Shown: positions 11,636 to 52,339, numbered from the stretch's first letter. The stretch: 64,000 nucleotides of DNA from Candidatus Latescibacterota bacterium (GCA_965207885.1 OZ242311.1:2528001-2592000); one strand, 5' to 3'. A program made the numbers and translations. Notes: generated by a model not told the origin, from the letters alone.

Positions 11636-11902
11636 TCATTCATCAAAGCTGAGGACAGGAACAGAAATATGGGGAGCGGTTGCTATCCGCTCGGGATTGT
11701 TCAGTAAATCTGCGATGCGAGATCCCACATCGGCTCGCACGACTTTGGCCCCACATTGGGGACAAACGCCTGCCAGAACATTCTCTAAAACGATGAGTTC
11801 ATCGCGTATCCAAAAGTCCTGTTTAATACGCTGTTCTTGCAGGGGTGTGTCACAGTTTTCACATTCTCCATAATCGTAAGCATTCATGTTGTCTTTGGGC
11901 AT
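11636..11902 (-). CDS. YgiT/MqsA-type zinc-finger protein (putative antitoxin)
   Basis: CENC...CPQCG zinc finger, 88 aa, directly downstream of DUF4258 gene. Confidence 0.8.
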   Translation of the reverse strand: MPKDNMNAYDYGECENCDTPLQEQRIKQDFWIRDELIVLENVLAGVCPQCGAKVVRADVGSRIADLLNNPERIATAPHISVPVLSFDE

Positions 11903-11904
11903 GG

Positions 11905-12183
11905 CTACTCCAGAGCGTAAGTTGTGATAAACAGTAATTTCCCGGTGCTCTTAATACGACATATTATAGCGATTTGTCTTCCGTCTGTTGCGGAACCTAC
12001 AATTTCGTACCGTGTACCTCGCGGGTCATGTGTAAATCTTCGTCTGATTTTTCCCCTTGCTATTGCTTCTTCAATATCTAGAAAGATTAGATTATCATCA
12101 GCCATTTCTTCAAAAAAATGTGGTATGGCAAATTCGTATTCTTGCTCTACCACCTTGCCTCGAATGACATCTATGATAGCCAC
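11905..12183 (-). CDS. DUF4258 protein (putative toxin)
   Basis: 92 aa; HFFEEM, DPRGTRYEIVG and FITTY pattern; coupled to YgiT-type gene. Confidence 0.78.
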   Translation of the reverse strand: MAIIDVIRGKVVEQEYEFAIPHFFEEMADDNLIFLDIEEAIARGKIRRRFTHDPRGTRYEIVGSATDGRQIAIICRIKSTGKLLFITTYALE

Positions 12184-12213
12184 TTTATATTTCCAGAGGG
12201 TTTATACTAACGT

Positions 12214-12603
12214 TTATACCTGTTGACCAAGACAATAGCACAACCTGTCTGGTGCGATGACAAAGAATATGCGGAAGGATTTATCGCCGTGTTGGTCAAT
12301 CCGATAATCGGGGTCGTCATTTTGCAATCCATTATTCTTCAATTCGTTGAAGGCGGTTTCGACATCATCCACTTCAAAAAAACACCCCTCTTGAGTCGGG
12401 TCGCCACCATTTTCTGCCAGGCCGATCTGGATATCGTCTCTTGCGAGTATAGCGGACTTACAGGGCGCGTCCTTCCGAGATACGACCCGAAATCCCATGA
12501 CTATTTCGTAAAAAGGGATGGCTTCTTCCAGGTTCTCAACCGGAAGGTTCATAGCGTCTTGCATGTAGGGCGAGGCTGTTTTAAATATAGATTTAGTTTT
12601 CAC
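12214..12603 (-). CDS. VOC/glyoxalase family protein
   Basis: LPVENLEEAIPFY, FFEVDDVE and FFVIAPD motifs. Confidence 0.8.
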   Translation of the reverse strand: MKTKSIFKTASPYMQDAMNLPVENLEEAIPFYEIVMGFRVVSRKDAPCKSAILARDDIQIGLAENGGDPTQEGCFFEVDDVETAFNELKNNGLQNDDPDYRIDQHGDKSFRIFFVIAPDRLCYCLGQQV

Positions 12604-12675
12604 GCTTATCTCCTTCTCTCTGAATCTATAAAAAAAATCACAGGTGTTTTTTGTTTCGCCTAATTTTTTATGTTC

Positions 12676-12765
12676 CTAACCTCGAAGCGGCCGGAACACA
12701 GTATTTAGACACAAAGGACTCACTTGCGTCCAGGATTGCTGAAGCTGTGGGGTAATAACACTCAT
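12676..12765 (-). pseudogene. 5' stub resembling the N-terminus of a HigA-type antitoxin
   Basis: ATG 1 nt after upstream stop; MSVITPQLQQSWTQVSPL then breaks off. Confidence 0.4.
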
Positions 12766-12766
12766 G

Positions 12767-14611
12767 TCATCCATCCACCTTCTGAGCTGTGGCATGGATT
12801 GTCCCTTCCGCAGGTACATCCACCCGCACGGTCAGCACGGTATATCTCTCATCGTCGCTGGTGACCATCGTTTCCAGACGTCCGCCATCCACTGCGTAAG
12901 CTCCTGCTGGGAGCACGAATGTCACCCGGCAATCGGGAAACGCGTCTTCCAGAATATTGGTCACTGTCGCTGTCACTCTGTCGTGTATCCCGTTGTTACC
13001 CGGATCGTATGCCACCTCAAGCGGCGGTGGTCCCTCTCGATTGAAAGGAACGGGAGCAACAGCATCTCCTCGATAGGTCGCCGATGTTACATGACCATCT
13101 TTAAAACGCACCACCCGAAAACTGCTGCTATTGCTTTTGCCCACCCGCGTCGTGGGTGTGGCTCCAATGGTCATCACCTTTTCCCCTGGGCCATGCGCGT
13201 CGTGGATCAGCTTTACCTTATGCCTATCCAGAAATGTCTCTACCGGGGCATTGTGCTCGAATGCGTTGATTATCTTGATCTTAGCCTTCGCCCGCGAGGA
13301 TAGAAGCGCGTTGGCTTGCGATAGATCCACATGCCAGGGATGCCGGAAATTCAGGATGCATAGGTCTGAGCCATAATCGATGATTCCCACCTGATCTCCA
13401 TACCACTTCTCGTGTCCGTAAAATTGGTGATTGCCGAATGTAATCGCATAGGGCATCTTCAGTACCAGATGTGATCCTGAGATATACGCCGGGTTCACCG
13501 CATTGCTAATCAGGACCATATCGGGTGCGATCAGGTTGGCGATCTCCGCCAGCCGTCTCTCGTACTCCGCCTGATATTGTCCCTGCGTGTCCAGGTGTCC
13601 AAACGTCATAAAAACCGGATCTTTCGGATAGTCTCGAACGACGTACACGCTTCTGGGAGACTGTCGTGTGAAATCTCCCCGCGAGCCGGACACCCTGATC
13701 GATAGATCGTATAACCCCGGTGGTATGTCTTGGGGCAGACTTACTGTGCCTTCCCGATCATAATAAAACTTCGCACTCGGATCTTCCTCAAACGCCACTG
13801 TGCGTGAGATCGTAGCTGGCCCAACCCGACGCGACAACTTCACTTGCCCTATCGTGTGATCGTAGGCTTCCAACCGCACCCGAAAGGATTCTCCGGGCTG
13901 CCGGATGGTCGGATGTCCCAGAACCGGGAATCGGACGCCTTGTGGCATGGTCTCTGGATGTCTATGAAGATACAGTGGTGGCAGGCGCGTTTCTTTTCCT
14001 TTTTGAATCGCGATTTCTTCAATTTTTTGAGACTCCCATCCGTACGCAATCAATTCCAATGAATATCCCTTTCCTGCGGGTAGGCCAGTCAGACGGCACG
14101 ACCCCGATAACCAATTCCGCACCAGTGTGTTCCGCACTATTTGACCTCTCTGGCGTACCACCGCTCGTGCATCTACGAGGAAGCCATTTTCCTCACCGTT
14201 GAGTACAAATGACAGCTCTCCAGAATGCTCCGCCAGGACTCGAAATCCAGATATACGGCAGCCCATCTCGCCCCTGTTCTGACGATGCTCAACGCGTACC
14301 CGGTGTTTCCCTTGTGTCAGTCCCCTCGCCAGTACCACCTCTCGTGCTTCGTTACCCGGATACAAGATGCGCGGACTCCCATTATCTACTGTCACAATTA
14401 GCTTTCCCAGGGACGGTCTCCCGTAGGCCGACACGGCGTGCTGGCCCAGACCAAGTGCCACTCCTGTACCGGTGAATTCAAACGTCAAGGTAGCGCCATT
14501 ATCCTCCGTCTCCAGACAGGCTGTCCTGGCATACCGGAACTGGCTCTCCCACCACGTACCTGATTGCAGCACACAGGCTGTATCCAGGGCTGACACCCAC
14601 TCTTTACTCAT
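12767..14611 (-). CDS. Hypothetical multidomain protein with C-terminal degenerate metallophosphoesterase-like domain
   Basis: 614-aa ORF with RBS; GHLDT, PDMVLISN, FGNH and HDAH motifs. Confidence 0.6.
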   Translation of the reverse strand: MSKEWVSALDTACVLQSGTWWESQFRYARTACLETEDNGATLTFEFTGTGVALGLGQHAVSAYGRPSLGKLIVTVDNGSPRILYPGNEAREVVLARGLTQGKHRVRVEHRQNRGEMGCRISGFRVLAEHSGELSFVLNGEENGFLVDARAVVRQRGQIVRNTLVRNWLSGSCRLTGLPAGKGYSLELIAYGWESQKIEEIAIQKGKETRLPPLYLHRHPETMPQGVRFPVLGHPTIRQPGESFRVRLEAYDHTIGQVKLSRRVGPATISRTVAFEEDPSAKFYYDREGTVSLPQDIPPGLYDLSIRVSGSRGDFTRQSPRSVYVVRDYPKDPVFMTFGHLDTQGQYQAEYERRLAEIANLIAPDMVLISNAVNPAYISGSHLVLKMPYAITFGNHQFYGHEKWYGDQVGIIDYGSDLCILNFRHPWHVDLSQANALLSSRAKAKIKIINAFEHNAPVETFLDRHKVKLIHDAHGPGEKVMTIGATPTTRVGKSNSSSFRVVRFKDGHVTSATYRGDAVAPVPFNREGPPPLEVAYDPGNNGIHDRVTATVTNILEDAFPDCRVTFVLPAGAYAVDGGRLETMVTSDDERYTVLTVRVDVPAEGTIHATAQKVDG

Positions 14612-14628
14612 CGGTGTTCACCCCTCTT

Positions 14629-15522
14629 TTAGACGCGCACTTCTCTCGCAACGATATCCAGATCCCACGCCTGCCAGTAATATTTCACCGGGTCGCTCGT
14701 GTCCCATTTTTCGTATACATCTTCCCACGTCAGCCAATTCATGTGCGGTTGTAGCGAATCGTCTCGAACTGGATGGCTTCGCGGTTGATATCGGTAATCA
14801 GCCGAAATCCGCAGACGGTCTGCCGACTCGTTATCGCGCCCCTGATGAATCGTCAAACTGTGTAGAATAATTACGTCGCCGCATAGATAGTCGCCGCCGA
14901 TCCAGACGGAATCCTCTTCGACGGGAACCTGACGACCACCTGGTCCCACGCCTTCGAATGTTTCCAGTTTCCCGCGTCGGTGCGAGCCTCGGGCGACGGC
15001 AAGTCCACCGAGTTCTTCTGGGCAGTCACCGCAGGGAATCCAGGCTGTCCAGGTATCGTCCGATCCTCCGATGAAGTAATTGTCCTGGTGCGGTGGGGTC
15101 GAATGGGTATCTGTATCAGGGAATACAAGGCGGCAGATGTTTCGGCTGTGCGGGAGTACCTGATCGCCGAACAGAACTTCAAACGCCTGAATCAGAGGGA
15201 GTTCGAGTGCCAGTGCGTGAAAGTCTCGAATTTTCAGTACATCATCATAAAATGCCTGCCAGCGCGGGTCTTTGCTCTCGACGACCTGAATGTCGGGATT
15301 TGCAATGCCCTCTGTCAGTTCGGAGCCTTCCGCCAGCCATCCATGATCCCGGCAGATGCCGAGAATCTGGTGCCGAACTTCGATTACACGTTCCGGATTG
15401 AGCAAGTTGCGAAAGAACAGATACCCATTCTCCTTTGCCTGTCGTCGAAGCGCCTCAGGATTCTGCAACAAATTCGTCGCGTCCTCAAGTGCTTCGATTT
15501 GCTTCATGTCAATCATTGCCAT
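14629..15522 (-). CDS. Phytanoyl-CoA dioxygenase (PhyH) family
   Basis: PPHQD, TAWIP, GSH, HSLTIH and RISADYRY motifs. Confidence 0.9.
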   Translation of the reverse strand: MAMIDMKQIEALEDATNLLQNPEALRRQAKENGYLFFRNLLNPERVIEVRHQILGICRDHGWLAEGSELTEGIANPDIQVVESKDPRWQAFYDDVLKIRDFHALALELPLIQAFEVLFGDQVLPHSRNICRLVFPDTDTHSTPPHQDNYFIGGSDDTWTAWIPCGDCPEELGGLAVARGSHRRGKLETFEGVGPGGRQVPVEEDSVWIGGDYLCGDVIILHSLTIHQGRDNESADRLRISADYRYQPRSHPVRDDSLQPHMNWLTWEDVYEKWDTSDPVKYYWQAWDLDIVAREVRV

Positions 15523-15561
15523 TATGACGGTCTCCTTTTTATGAACGAGTCAGGGTCCATG

Positions 15562-15918
15562 TCAGGGGGCCAACTCATGAATTTCGTCTGGTTCGGACAT
15601 GGATGTGAATTGGACAGCTTTTATCGTTTTACGCCCTTGAAGTATCGCTTTGCACAGGCGGTGGCCGCCATCCATGAGTGAGCCATCTGCATTTAGAATG
15701 ATAGGATATTTTAGGGAAGCGTGGTTAATTTTTTTACAATGCCGCGCGATCTCTCTTAATGTAGGTTTCTTTTCCCCAAACCAGCAGTCTTTGTCTAATT
15801 CTTCGATTGATGATATGTTGATTTCAAATGTAGAAAGATCGCTGGTCTGCATCCAGAGTTTTTCGGTGTACCATACGAGCCGTTTGCCATCGCGTATTGT
15901 GCTGTGTTTCTGTGGCAC
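15562..15918 (-). CDS. ParB/Srx-like small protein
   Basis: YPIIL..LMDGGHRL motif; RBS AGGAGG. Confidence 0.7.
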   Translation of the reverse strand: MPQKHSTIRDGKRLVWYTEKLWMQTSDLSTFEINISSIEELDKDCWFGEKKPTLREIARHCKKINHASLKYPIILNADGSLMDGGHRLCKAILQGRKTIKAVQFTSMSEPDEIHELAP

Positions 15919-15935
15919 GATTCCTCCTTTCGATT

Positions 15936-16451
15936 TCAGACCATACTCCGGCTGTATCGGATTTCTTTACGTTCAACCCCTGCAAGGGGTTCTACTTTTT
16001 GTGCACCATCCGCGCTGAATCCGAATTTTCGATAAAAGGAAATCGCCCTCTGGTTGGTATCGAGAAGCCAAATTTTTACCATTGAGCAATTCATATCGCG
16101 AAGGGCCGTAAGAGATGCCTCCATTAGCTTTCGGCCAATGCCGCGATCCCAGAATTCTTCAAGGGCATAAATTGCATAGACTTCGCCAACGGCGCTTTTA
16201 TCCAGTCCTTCATCTCGTACGGGGCCAAAGCTGATGAAAGCAATGATCCTTTGATCTACTTCGGCTACAAGTACTTTGTTGGAGGGACTATTGAGGGTCA
16301 GGTGCCATTGTTTCTCCCTCTGGTCAACAGATAAATTATCGAGGATGTCATCGGGCAATTGCCCCTTGTACGCAGCCTGCCAGGATCGAACGTGGACTTC
16401 GGCCAGACCTCTGGCGTCGTTTTTGGAAGGTTCTCGGATGATCATTGCCAT
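15936..16451 (-). CDS. GNAT N-acetyltransferase
   Basis: WDRGIGRKLM and NQRAISFYRKFGF motifs. Confidence 0.9.
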   Translation of the reverse strand: MAMIIREPSKNDARGLAEVHVRSWQAAYKGQLPDDILDNLSVDQREKQWHLTLNSPSNKVLVAEVDQRIIAFISFGPVRDEGLDKSAVGEVYAIYALEEFWDRGIGRKLMEASLTALRDMNCSMVKIWLLDTNQRAISFYRKFGFSADGAQKVEPLAGVERKEIRYSRSMV

Positions 16452-16485
16452 GGTAGGCGACCTTTCATAGTGATGGCGCCTTTCC

Positions 16486-17439
16486 TCATTTCTTGAGCGC
16501 GTCTCTCACGACCCTGGCGAGTTCCGGGTGCTTCTGCAGGGTGCTCAATCGAGAGATGACGAGATTGCCGCTGCCGTATTTCAGAGCGATTTCTATCTCT
16601 CTGACAAGGCGTTTGGGGGTGCGCACGAAGCCGGGCAGATCGTGGATGCCGATGAAGGGGACAAAGCGGTTGATCTCAGGATTTTCCAGGCGCTTCATTT
16701 GGGCGGCTTCCATTTCAACGCGTTCAAGTCGCCATTCGGGGGGATAGAACCAGGAGATGGTCTGTGTGCAATAGTCGAGTTTGTATTTGGCGCCAATGTA
16801 TTCGTCGGGAAGGAAGTGCGGCCAGACGTGGTTGGTGACGATGGCATTGGGATCTATGGATTTAGCGTGGTCGTAGAGGAGACGGTGAACGTCAATGAGT
16901 GTTTGCGTGGAGATTTTTTCCATGATTTCGATGTCGGACAGGTCGGGGTTTTGCTCGCGCGCTTCTTTACGGAGGGTTTCACAGCGGTCACAGAAACAGG
17001 CGTAGTAGTTGACAAAGCCAAAGCCGTCAAGGGCGATCCCGTCGGCGATGTTGAGGGCGCGCTCAACCCGCCTCTTGAGTTCGGCCTGCGATTCCGGATG
17101 CTCGAAACAGAGGACGGTTCTCGGTAAGACGAACGATTGCCAGCGGTAGCTCTCTCCGTGCAACCGGAGCCAGGATTGTCCGGTGATGACGTCCGAGACG
17201 TTGTGTTCGAATTCGCGCATTTTTTGAAGGCAATGCGGATAGGCATTTTCAAAGTCGTCGTCGGAATAGGGGAAGACGGTAGCGATGATCTGGATGTCTC
17301 GTTTATGGGCTCGCGCGACCATTTCAGGAGTGGCGCTATTGGTAATAAGCATGTTGCAGCCGAGGTCAGCCACAAAATCGACGGCTTGTTCGCGTTCGGC
17401 GTCGGTTCTGAGGCGGCCGATAGCCCAGACGGCTTTCAT
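16486..17439 (-). CDS. Hypothetical protein, glycoside-hydrolase-like TIM barrel
   Basis: LCFEHPE, DGIALDGF and CFCDRC motifs; RBS AAAGGA favours ATG 17439. Confidence 0.55.
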   Translation of the reverse strand: MKAVWAIGRLRTDAEREQAVDFVADLGCNMLITNSATPEMVARAHKRDIQIIATVFPYSDDDFENAYPHCLQKMREFEHNVSDVITGQSWLRLHGESYRWQSFVLPRTVLCFEHPESQAELKRRVERALNIADGIALDGFGFVNYYACFCDRCETLRKEAREQNPDLSDIEIMEKISTQTLIDVHRLLYDHAKSIDPNAIVTNHVWPHFLPDEYIGAKYKLDYCTQTISWFYPPEWRLERVEMEAAQMKRLENPEINRFVPFIGIHDLPGFVRTPKRLVREIEIALKYGSGNLVISRLSTLQKHPELARVVRDALKK

Positions 17440-17554
17440 GGGGAGATGTCCTTTATGGGGTTGGGCAACGGTCATCATCTGGTTCTGTCAGGTAATATCT
17501 CCCAGGTATATAGGAGGTGCCCCGGGTTCAGAGCCAAGATAATCGAGTAAAGGC

Positions 17555-18425
17555 TTAGGTAGTGTCTGAAAAGTAAGCTTTGAAGAGTTGTCTGATACAG
17601 GCCAGCTTGACCATAGTGAGAAAATGAGTCGCCTTTTTTTCAAATCGGGTCACAATCCGTCGGCAGTGTTTAAGCCAACCAAAGAGACGCTCCACGATAT
17701 TGCGTTTGGCATATAATCTTTTATCACACTTAGGCCGTGGTCCTCTCTTACGCCGTTTTCTGCCTTTGGGAATCGCCTTGTTTGGGATAGCAGCCTTGAT
17801 ACCCCGTTTGCGTAGATAGACTCTGATGCGTGAGACATCATAAGATTTATCAGCTACCAGATACTTGGGTCGGTTTCTTGGACGCCCTCGTTTGGTGGGT
17901 ATGCATACCTTTGACAGTAGCCTTTCAGCCTGTGTGGATTCTGACTGGTTACCAGGGAGAAGATCCACTGCTAAAGGATGCCCGACTGCATCGCAAAGAA
18001 GATGGATTTTCGTGGTCAAACCGCCACGAGAGCGTCCTAAAGCGTGATCTGGGGGCTCTTCTTCACCCTTTTTGCCCTTTTTTTTTCGCTCCTGCCGCGG
18101 CTTGTGTGGCTCGAATATGGGTTGCATCCATCATCCAGGTCGCATAATCTAAAAGACCATCTTCACCCAATTTGAGATGTAGCTTTTCTACAATGCGATC
18201 AAAGGTGCCATCCTGTTTCCATTTGCAGAATCGGTCAAAGGCTGTCTGCCAAGGACCATATCGTTCTGGCAGGTCGCGCCAAGCTGCACCTGAACACAAT
18301 ATCCAGAAGATCCCGTTGAATAATGTACGATCATCCCGACGGGGACGACCCATCTTCTTCGGCGGTGGGAACAGGTCTTGGATCAGATGCCAAGCCTCGT
18401 CGCGCAGTTCATATCTCCGTTGCAT
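17555..18425 (-). CDS. IS5-family transposase in two ORFs joined by probable -1 frameshift
   Basis: ORF A has WRDLPERYGPWQT; ORF B has GRSRGGLTTKIH, ADKSYD and RNIVERLF; A9 slippery run at 18078-18086. Confidence 0.9.
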
Positions 18426-45468: not shown

Positions 45469-45480
45469 GTGGAATCTCTA

Positions 45481-46119
45481 CTACGTATTTTCGACTCGAA
45501 AACCACTAACGAATTCGCGAATCACCCAAAGATGTTGATCTGGTTTATAAAGCGTTTGAATGTATCCTGTATCCCCAAAGGAAAATTCAATCCCCTGACC
45601 ACTGACCGATGGCTGTGCACCGACTATACAACGCAACGTGGCATTTAAAATACCTCCGTGTGCGACCACCAGATAGCGCCCTCTTCCTTGTCTGATCACT
45701 TTCTCCAGCGCCCGTGCGGCTCGACAGTGAAATGCCCAGGCACTCTCTCCCGCATCTGCACTTACAACATGGGGTTGAAAGGGATTGTGAAAATCAGGTA
45801 ATGGATATCTGGCTCTGGCGACCTGATGTGGCAAACCTGCAATCGGACCATTATCCTTTTCCATCCAGTCTTCATCAAATTCGACACCTACACCCAGGAT
45901 GTTATCTACTATTTGGGCTGTCTCGCAGGCACGCTTTAATGGACTCGCAATAATCCTGTCAAATGTGATCTCTCTCGACTTCAGTTCCTGTGCTCGGGCT
46001 TCAGCTTGTTCACGACCCACATCTGTAAGAGGTGCATCATATCGGCCCTCAATGACATTCTCGTCATCTGCTCGAGAGCGTCCGTGGCGCATGAACATAA
46101 TCTTGATATCACTATTCAT
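45481..46119 (-). CDS. Histidine phosphatase (PGM family), intact copy
   Basis: RHG, SPLKRA and VAHGG motifs. Confidence 0.9.
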   Translation of the reverse strand: MNSDIKIMFMRHGRSRADDENVIEGRYDAPLTDVGREQAEARAQELKSREITFDRIIASPLKRACETAQIVDNILGVGVEFDEDWMEKDNGPIAGLPHQVARARYPLPDFHNPFQPHVVSADAGESAWAFHCRAARALEKVIRQGRGRYLVVAHGGILNATLRCIVGAQPSVSGQGIEFSFGDTGYIQTLYKPDQHLWVIREFVSGFRVENT

Positions 46120-46150
46120 AAAATAACTCCATCATCAATCAGGAGAGAGA

Positions 46151-46214
46151 GAAACTCCATCTTGTCGGCATAAAGATTCATCCACGAGCTCTCGTAGATT
46201 ATCTCCCGAGGTAA
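46151..46214 (-). pseudogene. Fragment of a NUDIX allele matching 44215-44278
   Basis: 58/64 nt identical; LPREIIYESSWMNLYADKMEF. Confidence 0.9.
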
Positions 46215-46218
46215 TAAG

Positions 46219-47145
46219 TCAGTGTTTCCTATGGCCCACGAGTTGAGTAAGTTTTTCCCTATTTGCTTCAAAATTCTTTTTATTATGATTCACGTATGTT
46301 GCACCAAATAAGAAACACACTTCAAACCATAGAAGCTCCGCAACGTCCCTTCTAAATGCCTGACAAAAAATGGTCTTAAGTTCCGGTTTTTGGTGTAACC
46401 AACCTACGCATAGAATTTCACCGAGTGGATCATTTTTTAAACAAGCAAATTCCCAATCTATGGCAGCATATATAATACCATTTTTATGCAGAAAATTCTG
46501 TGGGTTCGGATCCCCGTGACAAAAGGTTAGAGGACGTGCATTTGGAAGCCGTTCACTCAGCCAGGAGAGCGAATATCTCACCAATGGATCATTTCTAAAT
46601 GTGCGCGAGTTCTCATCTAACCAGGCAAGGTTACTACACATTGTGCGGATAGGGAGAATAGATTCGAGGCTATCGGCTTCTTTGTAGTCGATAGTAGAAA
46701 TATATGCAATCAACTCTGCCAGTTGCGAAACCAATTGGTCGCTATAGGAAGGATGGAATGTCCACCTTAGATGCTTGCCAGGCAGACATTCCATCAGAAA
46801 ACTGGGGACACCAAAAGTTTCTCCATGATCATATCCCCAAACTTGGGGGGTGCGAAGCCTTAGATTTAGTTTATGTAGTTCCTGTAAAATCAAATATTCG
46901 CGGTGAAGATTATACAGATCATAGCTTTTTCGCCATTGGGGGATATATTCGGGTTCGCATCTTAGGACGAAATCAACATTTCCATCATCCGTTTTTGCAT
47001 AAATATAGTAATTGCGATTCTCTGTGCCCCCTGTCGTAGGTTGGGGCGGTCTTCTGAGCTCGATGATTTCTTTACCAACAGCAATAGACAAATATTCAAT
47101 GAGGTTTAACCTGTTTTCCTCAAATGTTGGATTCAGAAACTTCAT
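46219..47145 (-). CDS. APH/choline-kinase-like phosphotransferase
   Basis: CHGDPNPQNFL and IDWE motifs. Confidence 0.88.
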   Translation of the reverse strand: MKFLNPTFEENRLNLIEYLSIAVGKEIIELRRPPQPTTGGTENRNYYIYAKTDDGNVDFVLRCEPEYIPQWRKSYDLYNLHREYLILQELHKLNLRLRTPQVWGYDHGETFGVPSFLMECLPGKHLRWTFHPSYSDQLVSQLAELIAYISTIDYKEADSLESILPIRTMCSNLAWLDENSRTFRNDPLVRYSLSWLSERLPNARPLTFCHGDPNPQNFLHKNGIIYAAIDWEFACLKNDPLGEILCVGWLHQKPELKTIFCQAFRRDVAELLWFEVCFLFGATYVNHNKKNFEANREKLTQLVGHRKH

Positions 47146-48437
47146 TCGTCTCGAAGGGCATCCGTTACTTGCCCCTCCCTCTCAGCTCGAAAGCTTATAG
47201 ATTTACCATCTTTAATGGTGAAAGTCACCTTGTAATACGGATCGGTAGAAAAAACAAAGGTGTGATTTCCCATGGCTCGAAGTGGACGACCACTTACTCT
47301 GAGTGTACCTTCTGCAACTGATACTGGGAATGGCACGGGTGCCATAGTTGATCCCCACTTGTAAGTTCCCGTATAGATTTCGAGGTTATCTTCTGACACA
47401 TGGATTTCATCAATTACGATTTCAGGAATCCCCAACATCAGGCGTGAAACTTGACTCTCAAGTTGTGCACGAGGAGCAGAGTTGAGATTGCACAATACAG
47501 TGACAGTAAGACCATCATCGGGATAAGCAGATAATTGAGCACGAAATCCGTTTATGTCTCCGCCATGCTCAATTTTGCGATGTCCATTGAGATTGCTGAT
47601 GAAAAAACCATATCCGTATGTAGTTTGTTTTCCATTCCTTAAAAGACCTGGCTCAATCATCTCATTATAGCTTTGTCGTGATATGAGTTTATTCTCGTTT
47701 AGTGCAGTCTGCCATTTCAGCAGGTCTAATATACTGGAACCCAATGAACCTCCAGAGAATGGGTTATCCATGCCGAGGGGGCGCGCCAGAACAAATTCAT
47801 TATCCTTATGGTCATAACCCGTTGCGAGATTCTTGATAGGTTTGGTTTTCCCCAAATAGTAGGTGTCAAACATTTCCAAAGGTTGCCATACGTTCGCTTT
47901 GAGAAAGTCAGCATAGCTCATACCAGACACATTTTCGATTATCAAGCCCAGGAGGTAATACCCTGAGTTATTGTACTGAAAATTTTCACAGGGTGAAAAT
48001 TCAACGGGTTCTGACGAGAACAGATCAACGATCTCCTTTCGCGAAAGATCGCGTTCAGATATTTCCCAAAATTTCTCGATATCTGTATAGCTTTTGATGC
48101 CCGATGTATGGTTGAGAAGCTGATCAATTGTGACTTTATGATCTCTTTGGGGATAATTGGGCAGATAGTCCAGCATAATATCATTCAAATCCACCTTGCC
48201 CTGTTCAACAAGAATCATGATAGCGAGAGCTGTAAACTGTTTCGTTATTGAGCCAATCCGGTAAACAGTATGTTCAGTAGCTTCTACTTTTTTGTTCAAA
48301 TCTGCGTAGCCATATCCACGCGCAAGAATGATCTCATTATGGCGCATAACACCCACCGATGCCCCCACCAATTGGGTCTCATTTATCGCATTTTCTACAA
48401 TTGCATCAATCTGTTCTTGAATGGTTGCGTCTGGCAT
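47142..48437 (-). CDS. Serine hydrolase, beta-lactamase class C-like
   Basis: SITK, YNN and HGG motifs. Confidence 0.9.
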   Translation of the reverse strand: MPDATIQEQIDAIVENAINETQLVGASVGVMRHNEIILARGYGYADLNKKVEATEHTVYRIGSITKQFTALAIMILVEQGKVDLNDIMLDYLPNYPQRDHKVTIDQLLNHTSGIKSYTDIEKFWEISERDLSRKEIVDLFSSEPVEFSPCENFQYNNSGYYLLGLIIENVSGMSYADFLKANVWQPLEMFDTYYLGKTKPIKNLATGYDHKDNEFVLARPLGMDNPFSGGSLGSSILDLLKWQTALNENKLISRQSYNEMIEPGLLRNGKQTTYGYGFFISNLNGHRKIEHGGDINGFRAQLSAYPDDGLTVTVLCNLNSAPRAQLESQVSRLMLGIPEIVIDEIHVSEDNLEIYTGTYKWGSTMAPVPFPVSVAEGTLRVSGRPLRAMGNHTFVFSTDPYYKVTFTIKDGKSISFRAEREGQVTDALRDE

Positions 48438-48552
48438 GAATTCACCATATATGTTCAACGATATTTTTTCGGGTAGTGGGTTCGGAAGGACGCGTGAAGC
48501 CGTTGGTATAAGCCGTGCCGTATTTTTCCCAGCGGCCTTAGATCATCAATAT

Positions 48553-49353
48553 TTAGACCTTCATAAAATCGCTGAAATTGATCTGCTTGGGTCTGCAATA
48601 GGTGAAATCAAAAAGTCGTTCAAACCCGATTTTTCGGTAAATTGGCTCGCCCATTGATGACGCTTGAAGAGTTGAAATTTGAAAACCCCTCTCTAATGCA
48701 TCTAGCAATGGTGCGATCGTTAAAGCAGTTCCAATTCCTTGATTCCTGAATTCTGGCAAAACCATAACATTGTAGAGTCCAGCTACACCGGAAGAATAAA
48801 ACATCATAGACCTGCCAACGACTTTTCCACCCAATGATCCTGAATAGAGTCGCAAATTCGGTTCTGATAATAGCCTCTCATAGAGGCTGAACTCAAAACC
48901 ACTTCCCACTTGACACCATTGAGTGAGTTTTTCGATAGCATCGACAACCTCGATAGCTACGTCTTCAGATTTATGAGAATCGAATTTGCATTCGCTCAGA
49001 TCAGCAGCCATTGCAGGGCGCGAGAGAAACGGTTCAAAGTCTTTTTCTATCAGCCTTTCCTCCAGATTATCGGGTTTACTACTCACACTGAGTTTTATGA
49101 CAGGCGGGGCGACAAAATCCCTTATTGCGTCCATGATCGCGTCAAGTCTTTCATCTACCTGTTGTGGGGCAAAGCAGGGAGAAAAAATAAAATTTGGCCA
49201 CGAAGGTTTAGCTATAACCCAACTGACATCATCCTCTTCCACAAGAGTACGTCTACCTTTCTGTGCAAGAAATTTGTAGATATCGTATAGATTGTTTTCA
49301 TTCGCTGAAATCAAGTCATCAAGTGATGTTGACTTCATGATTGACCCTAACAT
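48553..49353 (-). CDS. GNAT family acetyltransferase
   Basis: PEFRNQGIG and LQAS..YRKIGF motifs. Confidence 0.85.
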   Translation of the reverse strand: MLGSIMKSTSLDDLISANENNLYDIYKFLAQKGRRTLVEEDDVSWVIAKPSWPNFIFSPCFAPQQVDERLDAIMDAIRDFVAPPVIKLSVSSKPDNLEERLIEKDFEPFLSRPAMAADLSECKFDSHKSEDVAIEVVDAIEKLTQWCQVGSGFEFSLYERLLSEPNLRLYSGSLGGKVVGRSMMFYSSGVAGLYNVMVLPEFRNQGIGTALTIAPLLDALERGFQISTLQASSMGEPIYRKIGFERLFDFTYCRPKQINFSDFMKV

Positions 49354-49376
49354 AGAGTCTCCTGATTTATTGAACT

Positions 49377-50018
49377 TTAAAAAAAGCGAAGGCGTTCTTC
49401 CACTGATAAATCTTTGGTCTGCAAATAATGCACTTGCCGAATGAAGTGTATTTCCTGCATCATTTCATCATTCGGAAATTCCTTCTGAACGTCCTTCCAA
49501 TGACTGGTGGCTGTGCACCGACTATACAACGCAACGTGGCCATTTAAAATACCTCCGTGTGCGACCACCAGGTAGCGCCCTTTTCCCAGTCGGATCACTT
49601 TCTCCAACGCCCGTGCGGCTCGACAGTGAAATGCCCAGGCACTCTCTCCCGCATCTGCACTTACAACATGGGGTTGAAAGGGATTATGAAAAGCAGGTAA
49701 TGGATACCTGGCTCTGGCGACCTGATGCGGCAAACCTGCAATCGGACCATTATCCTTTTCCATCCAGTCTTCATCGAACTCGACACCTACACCCAGGATG
49801 TTATCTACTATTTGGGCTGTCTCGCAGGCACGCTTTAATGGACTCGCAATAATTCTGTCAAATTTGATCTTTCTTGCCTTCAGCTCCTGTGCTCGGGCTT
49901 CAGCTTGTTCACGACCCACGTCTGTAAGAGGTGCATCATATCGGCCCTCAATGACATTCTCGTCATCTGCTCGAGAGCGTCCGTGGCGCATGAACATAAT
50001 CTTGATATCATCATTCAT
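49377..50018 (-). pseudogene. Second PGM-family copy, frameshifted and fused to a foreign 3' fragment
   Basis: 1-bp insertion near 49540; homology ends at ~49501, then WKDVQKEFPNDEMMQEIHFIRQ... Confidence 0.85.
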
Positions 50019-50148
50019 AAAATAACTCCATCATCAATCTTCACATACTCTTACAAGGATCTCCGTTGAGTCCGAGGTGTTCGTAGAACTCTTTGCCCGG
50101 CTGGTCAAGAGGCTTCCCATACACCGGCTCAAAGACACTAAGGTCCAT

Positions 50149-50811
50149 CTACGAGCTATCTCTTTTGACGGCGAAGAAAAATGGGTGAACTTCCTCCGGC
50201 GCATTAACACTTTTGGATCCACTTCCTACGGTACCTTCCTGTTCAATCTGGAACCCAGTCTCAGTGAGAAACTTTTTGTAGGTTGAGGGGCCAAAGTTGC
50301 TCCAGTACATGGTCCCGCCGAAGAAATCATCTTCAGTATATCCCGGCCCATCGTCGTACCTTGCAACCGTAAACAGAAGGAGGCCACCGGGCCGAAGCCA
50401 TTGTGCAAATCTACGAAAGAGGTCCTGGTGCTCCTGTCTCGGGATATGGAAGATGGCGTAAAAGCTGACAATTGCATCGAAGCTACCTGAGGGGAATTCG
50501 GTCTTCATTACGTCGGCGATGATGAATTCGGCTGTGGGGACGTTTTTCTTAGCTAAAGCGATCATGTTTGAGGAGATGTCGATCCCAGTGAGGCTGAATG
50601 TCCCGGCAAGATGTTGTGCAACCGGGATACCAGCACCACATCCAACATCAAGGATCTTTGCACCAGGCAGCAGATGCTCAGTTATCAAGTTGAGTTCCGC
50701 TTCAGGTGTGATACGCCTTTGCCCAGCGTAATCTCTCGCACACCGGTTATAGGCGGTCCTTACCAGGTCCCGATAATCGGTCTCCGGATCGTCAGCAATC
50801 TTGAATGGCAT
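50149..50811 (-). CDS. Class I SAM-dependent methyltransferase
   Basis: ILDVGCGAG and WLRPGG motifs. Confidence 0.9.
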   Translation of the reverse strand: MPFKIADDPETDYRDLVRTAYNRCARDYAGQRRITPEAELNLITEHLLPGAKILDVGCGAGIPVAQHLAGTFSLTGIDISSNMIALAKKNVPTAEFIIADVMKTEFPSGSFDAIVSFYAIFHIPRQEHQDLFRRFAQWLRPGGLLLFTVARYDDGPGYTEDDFFGGTMYWSNFGPSTYKKFLTETGFQIEQEGTVGSGSKSVNAPEEVHPFFFAVKRDSS

Positions 50812-50844
50812 AGGTCTCCTTGTTGATCTAAGTTATGCGTTTCC

Positions 50845-51753
50845 CTATCCGGTTCCGACGAGCACAAGCCCTGTGAAGATGATGGCGGTTCCGAGATATT
50901 TGGGGGTGTAGCCGGGTTCTTTGAGACAGAGAATACCGAAAATAGTGCCCAGGGGAATGCTGATCTGGCGAAAAGTAACGACATAGCTGACGTTTGAGAC
51001 AAAGGCCAGACTGATCAGGACCAGAGTATAAGCGACGGCCATGCCAGCACCTGCCAGCAGGGCGCGAGATGCCCGCGTTTTCAGGATTTCCCACATAAGG
51101 ATGCGACCGCGTTTTTGAAATAAAACCCAAATGCCCAGCCAGAGTGAGGTAATGAGGCCTTCAAAAAAGGCATAGAGAATCGTAGCCTGCCAGCCTGCAA
51201 TGGGAAGATCGGGAGTATCTCTGAGGAAGCGCAAAGCCTCGTCGTCGATGATCGAATAACCTGCTGAGGTGAAGGCGGCCATCAATGCAAACAATACCGA
51301 TGAATTCAGGTAGTTGTCAATACGGAAATCACTCAGATGCTTCATGGGCAGGATAAACATTCCAACGGCAACCAGGGCAATGCCCCAAATGCACTGTGTG
51401 CTGACCTGGTCGGCACGGTCAAAAAAAAGCGTCACGATAATGACTACGATGACCGGGGATGACCGGGCGATGGGGTAGAGGATGGACAGATCTCCTCTCT
51501 GGTAGGCGTTGGCCAACCCGAGGATGTAGATGGTCTGAAAAATACCTGTTGCGATAAGCAAGAACCATACGGAAGTAGGGAATGTGGGAATTGCTGAACC
51601 GAATAGGATGAGTGCGGGAATCAGGCACAGAGTTCCCAGTGTGTTGACCAGGAGGAAGAAGGCAGAGGACGGATGTTCCCGCTTACACAACAGGTTCCAG
51701 CCCACGTGAGTGAAGGCGGAGATGAGGATGAGGATGATGGCGGTGAGGGTCAA
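50845..51753 (-). CDS. EamA/DMT family transporter
   Basis: About 10 TM helices; GDLSILYPIARS and FRQISI motifs. Confidence 0.88.
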   Translation of the reverse strand: MTLTAIILILISAFTHVGWNLLCKREHPSSAFFLLVNTLGTLCLIPALILFGSAIPTFPTSVWFLLIATGIFQTIYILGLANAYQRGDLSILYPIARSSPVIVVIIVTLFFDRADQVSTQCIWGIALVAVGMFILPMKHLSDFRIDNYLNSSVLFALMAAFTSAGYSIIDDEALRFLRDTPDLPIAGWQATILYAFFEGLITSLWLGIWVLFQKRGRILMWEILKTRASRALLAGAGMAVAYTLVLISLAFVSNVSYVVTFRQISIPLGTIFGILCLKEPGYTPKYLGTAIIFTGLVLVGTG

Positions 51754-51819
51754 GGCGACATTTTTTGAATGATGGAAACAGGGAGGGTATCTTATCGTAA
51801 AAAACGGGCAAGTCGAGTA

Positions 51820-52122
51820 CTACACTTTATTTCGCGCTTCTAACCATCGCTTTAGCGAACGTTGGCTCTCTCCCGAAGGTCGGCCAGCCCATACATTTTC
51901 GACGCTAATATCCTCATCCAGATCAGGCCAATGGATGCCTTCACCTCGACCGATGAGTCGCCAATTATTGCGCTCTTGAGAGGTGCCATGCAATAGACGA
52001 GGATACCATTCTAAAGGGACTCTTATGCTTCGTCCATCAACTAAGTCTATCATTAGTGACTCGTCGTCGATAGAGATACGCTCCGCAAGCGTAGGTTGAA
52101 TTTCAATCGTTGAAATACTCAT
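51820..52122 (-). CDS. DUF2442 protein (DhiA-like antitoxin)
   Basis: LVDGR..VPLEWYPRL and GIHWPDLDEDISV motifs. Confidence 0.88.
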   Translation of the reverse strand: MSISTIEIQPTLAERISIDDESLMIDLVDGRSIRVPLEWYPRLLHGTSQERNNWRLIGRGEGIHWPDLDEDISVENVWAGRPSGESQRSLKRWLEARNKV

Positions 52123-52339
52123 TCCAGAACTCCACGATATCGTCTTGTTTTTCTCCAATAATCCTTCTGATACGCCTCAAATCCGTACTGCGAAAACCAC
52201 TACTTCTCTGTAATCGGATAGGTTCTATCCAAAATTTTGCGATAGAATCATCTCTTTCCACATGAACATGAATCGGTTCATCCCGGTCACCTGCATAAAA
52301 GAAAAATCGGTAGGGACCGTTTGAAAAAATAGTTGGCAT
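52103..52339 (-). CDS. DUF4160 protein (DhiT-like toxin)
   Basis: MPTI..GPYRFFFY and EPIHVHV motifs; overlaps DUF2442 start. Confidence 0.88.
   Translation of the reverse strand: MPTIFSNGPYRFFFYAGDRDEPIHVHVERDDSIAKFWIEPIRLQRSSGFRSTDLRRIRRIIGEKQDDIVEFWNEYFND

What the first reader, a model, noticed from the sequence alone, without database searches (positions are those of the whole stretch)
11636..52339. Candidate attC-independent gene-cassette array (~40 kb, ~50 co-oriented unrelated genes)
Seen: all genes but one lie on the minus strand and most gaps are under ~100 nt. Neighbours are functionally unrelated and base composition visibly shifts gene to gene (e.g. GC-rich 26404-27897 vs AT-rich 46219-47145). 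No repeated intergenic element or integrase is present, and junctions hold fragments of other genes. Known: this family mix (GNAT, NUDIX, VOC, SAM-MTase, HIT, AAC, TA pairs) is typical of superintegron cassettes, which normally require attC sites. Inference: a gene-by-gene capture/shuffling array whose units are RBS+ORF+short tail, joined at microhomologies rather than att sites. This may be an undescribed cassette system. Similar packing continues to the window edge.
Basis: partly seen in the sequence, partly recalled or inferred. Interest (0 to 1): 0.88.

Follow-up and report, generated by a model that had tools for sequence, protein, structure and literature searches.

The report
Co-oriented accessory-enzyme tract, not a cassette system
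A sponge-associated Latescibacterota chromosome carries a very long one-directional run of unrelated small enzyme genes that gains, loses and reorders single genes between species, but the ragged junctions point to ordinary recombination and deletion, not a new integron-like machine.

Summary
In 11636-52339 about 50 ORFs lie on the minus strand and one on the plus strand. 45 of 49 gaps are under 100 nt. There are no attC-like sites, no repeated intergenic element, and no recombinase within 800 kb.

The junctions are not site-specific. They hold remnants of deleted genes with different endpoints in different species. Three control regions elsewhere in the genome show the same gene-scale mosaic. 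GC heterogeneity and gap size are typical for this genome.

What is unusual is the scale:
- The one-directional tract runs about 120 kb.
- It holds 11 of the genome's 38 GNAT matches in 1.8% of the sequence.
- A relative from another family has a comparable 170-kb tract.

Best reading (0.62): this is an accessory-gene plasticity zone free of mobile elements apart from insertion sequences. It evolves by ragged deletion, occasional duplication, IS insertion and homologous exchange with co-occurring congeners.

A dedicated attC-independent cassette system is unsupported (about 0.08).

A weaker integron-like reading remains open (about 0.15): promoterless genes kept co-oriented because they depend on read-through transcription.

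The parts
4112..11591 (-). Conserved downstream flank: four genes of 348, 822, 933 and 318 aa. The last is a GFO/IDH/MocA oxidoreductase.
   Evidence: Pfam; families 4, 5 and 7 are in all 6 genomes; family 6 is missing in G006; the 822-aa anchor is found in 21 of 21 genus genomes.
11636..12183 (-). Toxin-antitoxin-like pair: YgiT-type zinc-finger protein (11636-11902) and DUF4258 protein (11905-12183). It is a clean two-gene insertion into a spacer that is 7-18 nt long in the relatives.
   Evidence: Absent in the 5 fetched congeners. One search shows it in G007 and part of it in G017.
12214..12603 (-). VOC/glyoxalase-fold gene, present in all six genomes.
12604..12766 (-). Spacer holding the remnant of a HigB/antitoxin module that is intact in G008. 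The 3' end of the upstream 614-aa gene is fused onto the last codons of the lost higB.
   Evidence: aligned spacers of six genomes; HigB_toxin in G008.
12767..17478 (-). Five genes: CE2_N-like 614 aa, PhyH 297 aa, unknown 118 aa, GNAT 171 aa, unknown 330 aa.
   Evidence: families 12 and 15 are universal; 11, 13 and 14 are variable. In G008 family 13 survives as a full-length remnant with no open frame.
17555..18500 (-). IS5-family insertion sequence with two overlapping transposase ORFs (DUF4096 and DDE_Tnp_1). Its 19-nt perfect inverted ends lie at 17556-17574 and 18478-18496. It sits in the 3' end of the NUDIX gene.
   Evidence: repeat I7; six further copies in G000 at 100% identity, and no copy at this site in relatives. 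One search shows two more copies.
18490..18882 (-). NUDIX gene truncated by the IS: 130 aa here against 151 aa in G002, G004 and G008. Its original end survives at 17479-17554.
18913..28423 (-). Mostly conserved backbone block: PhoD, DUF6141, Ldh_2, PhyH-like 411 aa, AAA_33 kinase-like, SAM-MTase, molybdopterin oxidoreductase, unknown 285 aa, unknown 497 aa, PNPOx-like.
   Evidence: 8 of these 10 are in all six genomes. DUF6141 was lost in G004 and the MTase in G002 by internal deletion, leaving both ends.
28441..33834 (-). Variable zone 1: NUDIX, 85-aa ORF, DUF402, DUF4037, SAM-MTase, unknown 244 aa, metallophosphoesterase, HIT. Content and order differ in every one of the six genomes.
   Evidence: One search shows gene-scale skips in contigs of other metagenomes.
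33304..33363 (-). Spacer carrying about 33 nt that resemble the 5' end of the MTase gene at 31008-31679. This gene-start remnant travels with the metallophosphoesterase gene.
   Evidence: families 33, 35, 36.
26333..26403 (-). Spacer carrying a 28-nt copy (93%) of the start region of the metallophosphoesterase gene at 33286-33313.
   Evidence: (repeat D8).
33922..36370 (-). Backbone: unknown 454 aa and PhyH 350 aa, both present in all six genomes.
36412..37251 (+). The only plus-strand gene: a PhyH dioxygenase of 279 aa, present in 4 of 6 genomes.
37229..51753 (-). Variable zone 2: GNAT, GNAT, AAC(3)-type acetyltransferase, FAD oxidoreductase, ArsR-type HTH, GrpB/ANT-like, GNAT_acetyltran, HAD (broken), NUDIX, beta-lactamase fold, His_Phos_1, APH, beta-lactamase fold, GNAT, His_Phos_1, SAM-MTase, EamA transporter.
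39109..40380 (-). FAD oxidoreductase gene, likely a recent import. It is 99.1% and 98.3% identical to G008 and G010 against a background of 90-94%. Where it is absent in G004 only a 6-nt spacer stands, with no remnant.
   Evidence: an 84% paralog lies at 2,924,652 in another tract.
43042..43758 (-). HAD hydrolase gene split into two ORFs (106 + 122 aa). It is a single 238-aa gene in G002, G004 and G008.
45481..46119 (-). His_Phos_1 gene, one of two copies. The other is at 49377-50018. A 300-nt stretch is 96% identical, and the upstream 22 nt are shared.
   Evidence: (repeats D1, D4); 80.6% aa identity.
51820..52339 (-). DUF4160 (52103-52339) and DUF2442 (51820-52158) pair, found in G000 and G002 only among the six genomes.
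52460..62291 (-). Sulfatase block: four sulfatases on the minus strand, one on the plus strand at 54611-55981, plus genes of 241, 820 and 417 aa. It is conserved, but the sulfatase at 55982-57298 sits at another position in G004 and G006.

Best explanation
The stretch is the first third of a roughly 120-kb one-directional tract of stand-alone accessory genes. The tract spans about 2,532,000-2,652,000 on a complete 6.23-Mb chromosome. The closest relatives' record titles read Candidatus Latescibacterota, and near-identical DNA is held in runs labelled sponge metagenome.

It is a chromosomal plasticity zone, not a site-specific cassette platform.

SHOWN
- The genes are unrelated single-function units. 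They are mostly small-molecule-modifying enzymes, together with toxin-antitoxin modules and an IS.
- A collinear backbone is inherited vertically within a 16-species subclade of the genus.
- Genes are lost by deletions with ragged endpoints that spare the neighbours and leave stumps of the lost gene.
- Occasional duplication and IS insertion occur.
- Adjacent genes differ widely in identity to the same relative (82-99%), and the nearest relative changes from gene to gene.

INFERRED
- New genes and new orders arrive mainly by homologous recombination in the conserved neighbouring genes, using DNA of co-occurring congeners.
- Illegitimate joins at short homologies also contribute.
- Selection removes any event that damages a neighbour. 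That is why surviving breakpoints hug stops and ribosome-binding sites in a genome whose normal spacer is only about 30-36 nt.

NOT EXPLAINED
- Why the tract is one-directional is not settled. Tandem duplication does not account for it, and judging by the position of dnaA and the sign of the GC skew, neither does replication direction.
For: - Collinear backbone with gene-scale differences in 5 fetched congeners: 15 of 49 array families are in all six genomes, against 12 of 14 flank families.
- The two anchor genes lie on one contig in 13 congeners, 33.8-56.4 kb apart.
- Ragged junctions and stumps:
  - The MTase at 23506-24321 is reduced in G002 to its ATG plus its last ~50 nt.
  - DUF6141 is reduced in G004 to its first ~50 and last ~70 nt.
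  - AAC(3) and a GNAT were lost independently in G002 and G008, leaving 47 nt and ~100 nt of the gene start.
  - The 3' end of the NUDIX gene at 28441-28869 survives at four different lengths in four genomes.
  - higB/antitoxin remnants remain in G000 and G004.
- Breakpoints are spread over about -100 to +30 nt around starts and -50 to +30 nt around stops; there is no fixed point.
- Mosaic identity: the background is 90-94%. Gene 39109-40380 reaches 99.1% and 98.3%. Gene 29274-29960 is 97.8% identical to G006, where it sits at a different position. Gene 15936-16451 is 82.9% identical to G010 but 92.4% to G008. The nearest relative is G010 for 31, G008 for 10, G002 for 5, G004 for 5 and G006 for 4 of 55 genes.
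- The same fragmentation occurs elsewhere in the genome. Matches per congener in three control 20-kb regions were 10, 11, 15, 15, 7 / 6, 7, 6, 9, 6 / 5, 4, 7, 5, 8. The array halves gave 10, 10, 13, 8, 12 and 12, 12, 15, 14, 12.
- No attC, integrase, tRNA or repeated element.
- GC heterogeneity and gap size are ordinary for this genome.
- Contigs of other metagenomes join across whole genes, for example 39071 to 40397 and 43768 to 47150. An independent 5.8-kb contig confirms the G000 order over 29525-35259.
- Literature: hotspots without mobile elements that diversify by recombination at flanking core genes are described in PMC5635113 (abstract and passages read).
Against: - Homologous exchange is inferred from identity mosaics. 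I ran no formal recombination or gain/loss test.
- The array is more variable than its immediate flanks (15 of 49 against 12 of 14 families universal). It also shows more pieces than 2 of the 3 controls, so it may be a true hotspot and not merely average.
- One-directionality at the 98.9th percentile over about 120 kb is left unexplained. So is a comparable tract of about 170 kb in another family.
- All variable enzyme genes seen in the six arrays are co-oriented. The opposite-strand insertions are MazF-type TA, IS transposases, a GntR + peptidase pair and a LapA-like gene, most of them module types that usually carry their own promoters (that point is recalled). This hints at an orientation constraint that plain recombination does not predict.
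- Several insertions are very clean, notably the TA pair at 11636-12183 and the gene at 39109-40380.
Confidence: 0.62

Rival explanations
1. Integron-like by selection. The tract is a long read-through expression platform. Most enzyme genes lack promoters of their own and are expressed only when co-oriented with upstream transcription. Ordinary recombination supplies the genes, and selection keeps only co-oriented, tightly joined RBS+ORF units. This would be a functional analogue of an integron array with no dedicated recombinase.
For: - One plus-strand gene among about 50 in the finding, and about 9 exceptions among about 125 crude calls over 120 kb.
- 30 of 47 genes have an SD-like core just upstream of the called start, and the median spacer is 30 nt.
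- Promoter-like and terminator-like sites are not enriched over shuffles.
- In relatives the opposite-strand insertions are TA, IS and regulator-led modules, while variable enzyme genes are all co-oriented.
- Only 11 of 117 tract genes have their best paralog inside the tract, so duplication does not explain the orientation.
- Contigs from an RNA library span several genes, at 31558-33835 and 39116-40654.
- A comparable tract exists in another family.
Against: - There is no transcript evidence. The RNA-library contigs are about 91-93% identical, so they come from relatives. They cannot show one transcript, and DNA carry-over is not excluded.
- The promoter scan uses a sigma-70 consensus that may not apply in this phylum.
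- Co-orientation of variable genes may simply be inherited from one ancestral array followed by differential loss.
- The 30-nt spacers are the genome norm.
Confidence: 0.15
2. One reading: a dedicated, undescribed attC-independent cassette system that captures and shuffles RBS+ORF units at microhomologies by means of some specific machinery.
For: - Gene-by-gene presence/absence and order changes between congeners.
- Breakpoints near stops and ribosome-binding sites.
- Some clean single-unit insertions.
- The gene at 29274-29960 is 97.8% identical in G006, where it sits at another position in the array.
- The family mix is cassette-like.
Against: - There is no fixed junction. Stumps of lost genes have differing endpoints.
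- The moved unit around 29274-29960 carries 80 nt upstream and 383 nt downstream, including a second ORF. It is not a trimmed ORF.
- The same mosaic appears in 3 of 3 control regions.
- No tyrosine recombinase lies within 800 kb, and the genome has no serine recombinase.
- The only transposases belong to ordinary IS copies.
- Most of the order is conserved in 13 congeners.
Confidence: 0.08
3. A decayed sedentary integron (CALIN-like) whose attC sites have eroded or overlap coding sequence.
For: Cassette-like gene families, TA modules inside the array, and co-orientation.
Against: - 45 of 49 spacers are under 100 nt and the median is 30 nt. That is too short for attC sites, whose minimum length of about 55-60 nt is recalled, not measured here.
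- 0 attC-like candidates.
- 0 of 12 long spacers fold better than chance.
- No IntI relative nearby.
- No shared element in any spacer.
Confidence: 0.02
4. The array grew by tandem duplication and divergence of a few enzyme families, which would give co-orientation for free.
For: - Two His_Phos_1 copies are 80.6% identical at the protein level, with a 300-nt stretch at 96%.
- The tract holds several GNAT, MTase, NUDIX and PhyH genes.
Against: - Only 11 of 117 tract genes have their best paralog in the tract.
- 51 of 117 have no paralog at E<1e-8.
- Most best paralogs lie in other parts of the chromosome at 25-60% identity.
Confidence: 0.03
5. Assembly or binning chimera.
For: None found.
Against: - The chromosome is a single 6.23-Mb contig.
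- The same order occurs in many independent single-contig congeners.
- Contigs of a different study cover 28400-39071 in the same order with few differences (run X5, records 17-20).
Confidence: 0.01

Closest known systems
Sedentary chromosomal integrons and CALIN arrays (Vibrio-type superintegrons)
   Same: A long co-oriented run of short, functionally unrelated genes. The family mix is the same (GNAT, NUDIX, VOC, MTase, HIT, aminoglycoside-modifying folds). TA modules are interspersed. Content differs gene by gene between relatives.
   Different: No attC sites, and spacers with a median of 30 nt leave no room for them. No IntI, attI or any nearby recombinase. Junctions are ragged with gene stumps, not a fixed crossover point. 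A large collinear backbone is shared by 13+ species.
[quoted passage not shown]
   Same: Accessory-gene turnover concentrated between conserved genes. No integrase or self-mobile element. Mosaic identity in the conserved neighbours. Enrichment in strain- or species-specific adaptive genes and TA/defence-like modules.
   Different: Here dozens of small variable spots are chained with single backbone genes into one tract of about 120 kb on one strand. Whether turnover exceeds the rest of this genome is not established (controls look similar). The comparison is between species of a genus, not strains.
Neisseria minimal mobile elements (passages in PMC1797815 read; the original 2002 paper was seen only as a reference)
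   Same: Alternative whole-gene inserts of one to three genes at syntenic positions between conserved genes, without mobility genes of their own.
   Different: Natural transformation and uptake sequences are unknown for this organism. The units here are strung in a very long co-oriented series.
Long operons and uber-operons (recalled, no paper read)
   Same: Tight spacing, start/stop overlaps (ATGA, TAAATG) and one direction of transcription.
   Different: The genes have no evident functional link. Neighbours are not conserved outside the subclade: G001 has other genes at the site, and homologues of the 497-aa gene in MAGs labelled with 5 other taxa have unrelated neighbours.

Membership tests
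Integron / CALIN | attC recombination site (imperfect palindrome with R''/R' cores) after each cassette | tested here: not met
   Spacers: 45 of 49 under 100 nt, median 30 nt. Motif-plus-pairing scan: 0 hits against a mean of 0.13 in 30 controls. 0 of 12 spacers of 60 nt or more fold better than shuffles. No shared spacer element. The IntegronFinder attC model itself was not available.
Integron / CALIN | IntI tyrosine recombinase with attI and Pc next to the array (complete integron) | tested here: not met
   4 PF00589 matches in the genome, at 0.66, 1.70, 4.84 and 5.82 Mb. None lies within 800 kb of 2.54-2.58 Mb.
Integron / CALIN | Co-oriented, mostly promoterless cassettes | tested here: inconclusive
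   Co-orientation is met. Promoterless status is not testable: the consensus scan shows no enrichment, and no usable transcript data exist.
Integron / CALIN | Precise, recurrent cassette boundaries | tested here: not met
   Ragged endpoints and gene stumps.
Mobile-element-free HGT hotspot / plasticity zone | Accessory genes turning over between conserved genes | tested here: met
   15 of 49 array families are universal in six genomes, against 12 of 14 flank families. Order changes occur in two zones.
Mobile-element-free HGT hotspot / plasticity zone | No integrase or self-mobile element accounting for the turnover | tested here: met
   Only IS copies are present, inserted independently in G000, G002 and G006.
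Mobile-element-free HGT hotspot / plasticity zone | Excess homologous recombination in the conserved neighbours | tested here: inconclusive
   Identity to one relative ranges from 82% to 99% between adjacent genes, and the nearest relative switches. No formal test such as ClonalFrameML or tree incongruence was run.
Mobile-element-free HGT hotspot / plasticity zone | Turnover above the genome background | tested here: inconclusive
   The number of pieces per congener is similar to control 1 and higher than controls 2 and 3. This is a crude measure.
Minimal mobile elements | Alternative gene inserts at one syntenic site between conserved genes | tested here: met
   For example, the NUDIX gene at 18490-18882 is replaced by a PhyH-fragment ORF in G010. 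The zone between 27917-28423 and 33922-35286 differs in all six genomes.
Minimal mobile elements | Spread by natural transformation | not testable with these tools
   The organism is uncultured. Competence genes and uptake sequences were not examined.
Operon / uber-operon | Functionally linked genes with neighbourhood conserved across distant taxa | tested here: not met
   Unrelated Pfam families. The array is absent beside the left anchor in G001. Contexts are unrelated in other phyla.
Genomic island / ICE / prophage | Integrase, tRNA or direct-repeat borders, transfer or phage genes | tested here: not met
   and Pfam.

The most novel reading that the evidence does not exclude
This order of sponge-associated Latescibacterota keeps 100-kb-scale one-directional 'enzyme libraries'. 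These are read-through expression tracts into which promoterless single genes are recruited and swapped among co-resident species by general recombination. They would work like a superintegron with no attC and no integrase. Orientation and tight RBS+ORF joints would be enforced by selection for expression, not by a recombinase.
Probability: 0.15. Interest if true: 0.7.

Novelty: new member of a known kind. Interest (0 to 1): 0.38.

Why it matters
If the ordinary reading is right, the value is descriptive. Complete symbiont genomes show that single-gene mosaicism with near-perfect gene boundaries can arise without any cassette machinery. Integron-like gene content and packing alone should therefore not be read as a new mobile system.

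The scale is still notable:
- About 120 kb runs on one strand.
- 11 of the genome's 38 GNAT matches sit in 1.8% of the sequence.
- Sister tracts exist elsewhere in the genome, and a comparable tract exists in another family.

This makes the locus a good natural test of whether read-through expression can organise accessory genes the way integrons do. The tract is also a compact catalogue of small-molecule-modifying enzymes from an uncultured sponge symbiont. It includes seven proteins with no Pfam or NCBIfam family.

Tried and rejected
- Rfam at gathering thresholds found nothing in the window, and ARAGORN found no tRNA.
- Sigma-70-like promoters numbered 22 and 33, against shuffle means of 18.1 and 27.7. 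Terminator-like sites numbered 18 and 16, against 21.3 and 20.1. Neither differs from chance, so these scans say nothing either way.
- Tandem duplication as the source of co-orientation was rejected.
- Leading-strand bias as the source was rejected provisionally. dnaA lies at 331,970, where the skew switches from negative to positive. The skew switches back near 3.1 Mb. That would place the minus-strand tract on the lagging strand, but the skew is patchy and near zero across 2.2-2.9 Mb, so the replichore assignment is not firm.
- Neighbourhoods of homologues of the 497-aa gene (26404-27897) in MAGs labelled Gemmatimonadetes, Gemmatimonas, Planctomycetota, Clostridia, Limnochordia and Pontiellaceae share no array genes.
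- Literature searches: 'Latescibacteria / sponge / integron'; 'gene cassettes / without attC / integron-like / cassette array / no integrase'; and a term search inside PMC12993501. None found a description of such a tract. These three searches are the only basis for saying I found none in print. Supplements were not seen.
- Read laying used contigs only, so it could show no transcript ends, strands or levels. The RNA-library runs X17 and X18 gave short or divergent contigs. Stretches without cover mean nothing. The joints come from a run laid at 90% likeness and most likely belong to related organisms, not to excision in this strain.
Their shares are not used as evidence.
- The search for homologous proteins, the search of protein representatives, structure prediction, complex prediction and the protein-atlas search were not used.

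Full report
WHERE THE WINDOW LIES

The window is G000:C1:2528001-2592000 of a single-contig genome of 6,228,721 bases with 51.1% GC. Record titles of the closest relatives of one array gene read 'Candidatus Latescibacterota bacterium' or 'uncultured Latescibacteria bacterium'. Runs labelled sponge metagenome hold near-identical DNA. Run X5, from a different study, was laid and gave contigs of 4.3-7.0 kb with few differences.

THE OBSERVATION

ORF listing and Pfam/NCBIfam scans give about 50 ORFs in 11636-52339. All are on the minus strand except the PhyH gene at 36412-37251.

Of the 49 junctions in the finding, 45 are under 100 nt. The median over the window's 61 minus-strand junctions is 30 nt. 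There are six 0-nt and three -4 overlaps.

The two ends of the finding are toxin-antitoxin-like pairs: YgiT zinc finger + DUF4258 at 11636-12183, and DUF4160 + DUF2442 at 51820-52339.

It truncates the NUDIX gene at 18490-18882 to 130 aa, against 151 aa in three relatives.

IS IT MORE THAN CHANCE FOR THIS GENOME?

With a crude genome-wide gene call (5,023 ORFs), the genome is not globally strand-biased: 32-74% of genes are on the minus strand per 200 kb. I compared the array with all windows of 48 consecutive genes:
- Strand uniformity is at the 98.9th percentile.
- Median gene length (251 aa) is at the 0.7th percentile.
- GC sd is at the 53rd percentile.
- GC3 sd is at the 70th percentile.
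- The median gap is 30 nt, against a genome median of 36 nt.

One-directionality and short genes are the real peculiarities.

The minus-strand run extends from about 2,532,000 to 2,652,000, with about 9 exceptions among about 125 crude calls. I sampled twenty genes from 2,592,000-2,632,000. Eighteen of the 20 had Pfam matches showing the same mix: GNAT x7, MTase x4, NUDIX, HAD, PhyH, AAA_33, ANT(2''), sulfotransferase, 2'-5' RNA ligase and one DUF4838. Two had no family.

Eleven of the genome's 38 PF00583 matches and 4 of its 19 NUDIX matches lie in 2,539,600-2,652,000, which is 1.8% of the genome. Other clusters lie near 1.447-1.460, 1.80-1.87 and 2.84-2.95 Mb.

INTEGRON TESTS

- No Rfam family and no tRNA.
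- A scan for R''...R' cores with paired inner arms found 0 candidates, against 0.13 ± 0.50 in 30 Markov-1 controls.
- None of the 12 spacers of 60 nt or more folds better than its shuffles; z-scores run from -1.40 to +1.38.
- No direct or inverted repeat family marks the spacers.
- The genome has four PF00589 matches, all more than 800 kb away, and no PF00239 match.
- The attC covariance model of IntegronFinder was not available, so the negative rests on spacer length, motif, folding and repeats.

RELATIVES

All 20 other species genomes of the genus match the region.

In 13 of them the two anchor genes (the 822-aa and 820-aa proteins) lie on one contig, 33.8-56.4 kb apart; in G000 the distance is 51.0 kb. 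Four more distant congeners lack the right anchor. In one of these, G001, the left flank is followed by different, larger genes, and array homologues are scattered.

I fetched the whole region from five congeners, clustered ORFs at 70% identity or more, and drew the order map:
- Flank families are nearly invariant: 12 of 14 are in all six genomes.
- 15 of 49 array families are in all six. These form a collinear backbone.
- Two zones, 28441-33834 and 37229-51753, differ in content in every genome and also in order. For example, the transcription order MTase, metallophosphoesterase, HIT in G008 is HIT, metallophosphoesterase, unknown, MTase in G000.
- Even a sulfatase at 55982-57298 sits elsewhere in G004 and G006.

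WHAT THE JUNCTIONS SAY

Where neighbours differ, homology ends close to the gene. The mode is 10-30 nt before the start and 0-10 nt after the stop, but the endpoints are spread from about -100 to +30 and from -50 to +30.

Read base by base, many 'absences' are deletions that left stumps:
- G002 keeps the ATG and the last ~50 nt of the MTase at 23506-24321.
- G004 keeps the first ~50 and last ~70 nt of DUF6141.
- G002 and G008 lost AAC(3) plus a GNAT by different deletions, leaving 47 nt and ~100 nt of the AAC(3) start.
- The tail of the NUDIX gene at 28441-28869 survives at four different lengths in G008, G006, G004 and G002.
- A HigB/antitoxin pair that is intact in G008 is a 163-nt remnant in G000, and the upstream gene now ends in higB's last codons.
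- In G008 the 118-aa gene at 15562-15918 survives as a full-length remnant with no open frame.
- Stumps also travel. About 33 nt resembling the MTase start precede the metallophosphoesterase gene wherever it goes, and a 28-nt copy of that gene's start sits in the spacer at 26333-26403 (repeat D8).

A few events look like clean insertions:
- The TA pair at 11636-12183 sits in a spacer that is 7-18 nt long in relatives.
- The FAD oxidoreductase at 39109-40380 has an empty site in G004 that is a 6-nt spacer.

None of this has the signature of a site-specific crossover.

SIGNS OF EXCHANGE

Per-gene nucleotide identity of G000 to the five congeners is mostly 90-94%, but it is strongly heterogeneous:
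- 39109-40380 is 99.1% identical to G008 and 98.3% to G010. Elevated identity to G010 covers about 2.65 kb around it.
- 29274-29960 is 97.8% identical to G006, where it lies between other genes. The shared unit runs from -80 to +383 nt and includes a second small ORF.
- 15936-16451 is 82.9% identical to G010 but 92.4% to G008.
- 31701-32435 is 82.3% identical to G010 but about 92% to G004 and G006.
- The nearest relative is G010 for 31, G008 for 10, G002 for 5, G004 for 5 and G006 for 4 of 55 genes.

This is what homologous exchange among diverged co-resident lineages produces, but I ran no formal test.

Contigs of another metagenome, laid at 90% likeness, join across whole genes: 28455 to 28886, 28468 or 28481 to 32481, 29117 to 33381, 39071 to 40397, 43768 to 47150, and 45480 to 46193. 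Related populations with other gene sets therefore co-occur.

CONTROLS

Three arbitrary 20-kb regions of G000 (at 0.50, 3.50 and 5.00 Mb) were searched against the same five congeners. They break into gene-scale pieces too. Matches per genome were 10, 11, 15, 15, 7; then 6, 7, 6, 9, 6; then 5, 4, 7, 5, 8. The two array halves gave 10, 10, 13, 8, 12 and 12, 12, 15, 14, 12. Gene-by-gene mosaicism is thus a trait of the genus, not of this locus alone, although the array sits at the upper end.

WHY ONE DIRECTION?

- Duplication does not explain it. Only 11 of 117 tract genes have their best paralog inside the tract, and 51 have none.
- Replication direction probably does not explain it. dnaA and a skew switch lie at 0.33 Mb. 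The skew turns negative near 3.1 Mb, which would put these minus-strand genes head-on. The skew is patchy and near zero here, so this is tentative.
- In the relatives' arrays the opposite-strand insertions are a MazF-type TA pair, IS transposases, a GntR regulator with an S41 peptidase, and a LapA-like gene. Variable genes on the array strand include MTase, GNAT, GPP34, GFO/IDH/MocA, SIR2, PIN and Gp49-like. This fits, but does not prove, a dependence of promoterless genes on read-through transcription.
- A genome of another family in the order (G027) has a stretch of about 170 kb in which 155 of 214 crude ORFs, and nearly all long ones, share one strand. Only a few 60-76% homologues of the G000 array genes are scattered through it.

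VERDICT

The locus is best filed with mobile-element-free plasticity zones or hotspots that diversify by recombination at conserved neighbours (PMC5635113). It also resembles the minimal-mobile-element idea from Neisseria (PMC1797815). Ragged deletion is the most visible process. It works partly like an integron array in content and layout, but it fails every tested defining feature of an integron. The specific claim of a new cassette system is not supported. The unusual length, one-directionality and enzyme enrichment of the tract remain unexplained and are worth a transcript-level test.

Noticed in passing
window 26404-27897 (-): This 497-aa protein has no Pfam or NCBIfam family. Its only PDB sequence hit is a weak 64-residue match to a tail-spike protein (E 5e-05). 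It is nevertheless 69-79% identical to proteins in MAGs labelled Gemmatimonadetes, Gemmatimonas, Planctomycetota, Clostridia, Limnochordia and Pontiellaceae, always in unrelated neighbourhoods. It looks like a highly conserved, widely transferred enzyme of unknown function.
   Followed up: partly
whole genome G000:C1 (outside the window): GC skew changes sign at least eight times, with blocks of ±0.1-0.2. It is near zero across 2.2-2.9 Mb. dnaA (331,970) sits at one switch. This suggests several large recent inversions, or a terminus-proximal accessory zone with weak skew.
   Followed up: partly
G000:C1 about 1.447-1.470 Mb, 1.80-1.87 Mb, 2.69-2.79 Mb and 2.84-2.95 Mb: Further long one-directional runs. 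Some are enriched in GNAT and NUDIX genes and hold the best paralogs of several array genes, for example an 84% paralog of the FAD oxidoreductase at 2,924,652.
   Followed up: partly
G027:C1:3380001-3560000 (loci L051-L059): A relative from another family has a stretch of about 170 kb of small genes almost all on one strand. Its spacers are wider than in G000, and only a handful of array homologues are present.
   Followed up: partly
window 17555-18500 and G000:C1 224929, 566477, 1000678, 4211071, 4313106, 4462562, 5332668, 2619739: At least nine identical copies of one IS5-family element are in the genome. One copy lies in the tract just beyond the window, in the opposite orientation. The element appears recently active.
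   Followed up: partly
window 25147-25281 (-): Degenerate 9-nt periodic repeat (nine overlapping 48-nt copies) inside the molybdopterin oxidoreductase gene. It probably encodes a low-complexity linker.
   Followed up: no
window 43042-43758 (-): The HAD hydrolase gene is broken into two ORFs in G000 but is intact (238 aa) in three congeners.
   Followed up: yes
window 62292-62442: This 151-nt spacer upstream of the 417-aa gene contains a near-consensus TTGACA-17-TATATT promoter-like site on the minus strand. It is one of the few obvious candidate promoters in the run.
   Followed up: no
L020-L022 (G002), L016-L018 (G006): Congeners carry different insertion sequences inside their arrays: DDE_Tnp_1, DDE_5 and Mutator-family transposases. 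One splits the DUF6141 gene in G002.
   Followed up: partly
window 15562-15918, 16486-17478, 25475-26332, 31701-32435, 33922-35286, 53729-54454: Six further conserved ORFs with no Pfam or NCBIfam family.
   Followed up: no
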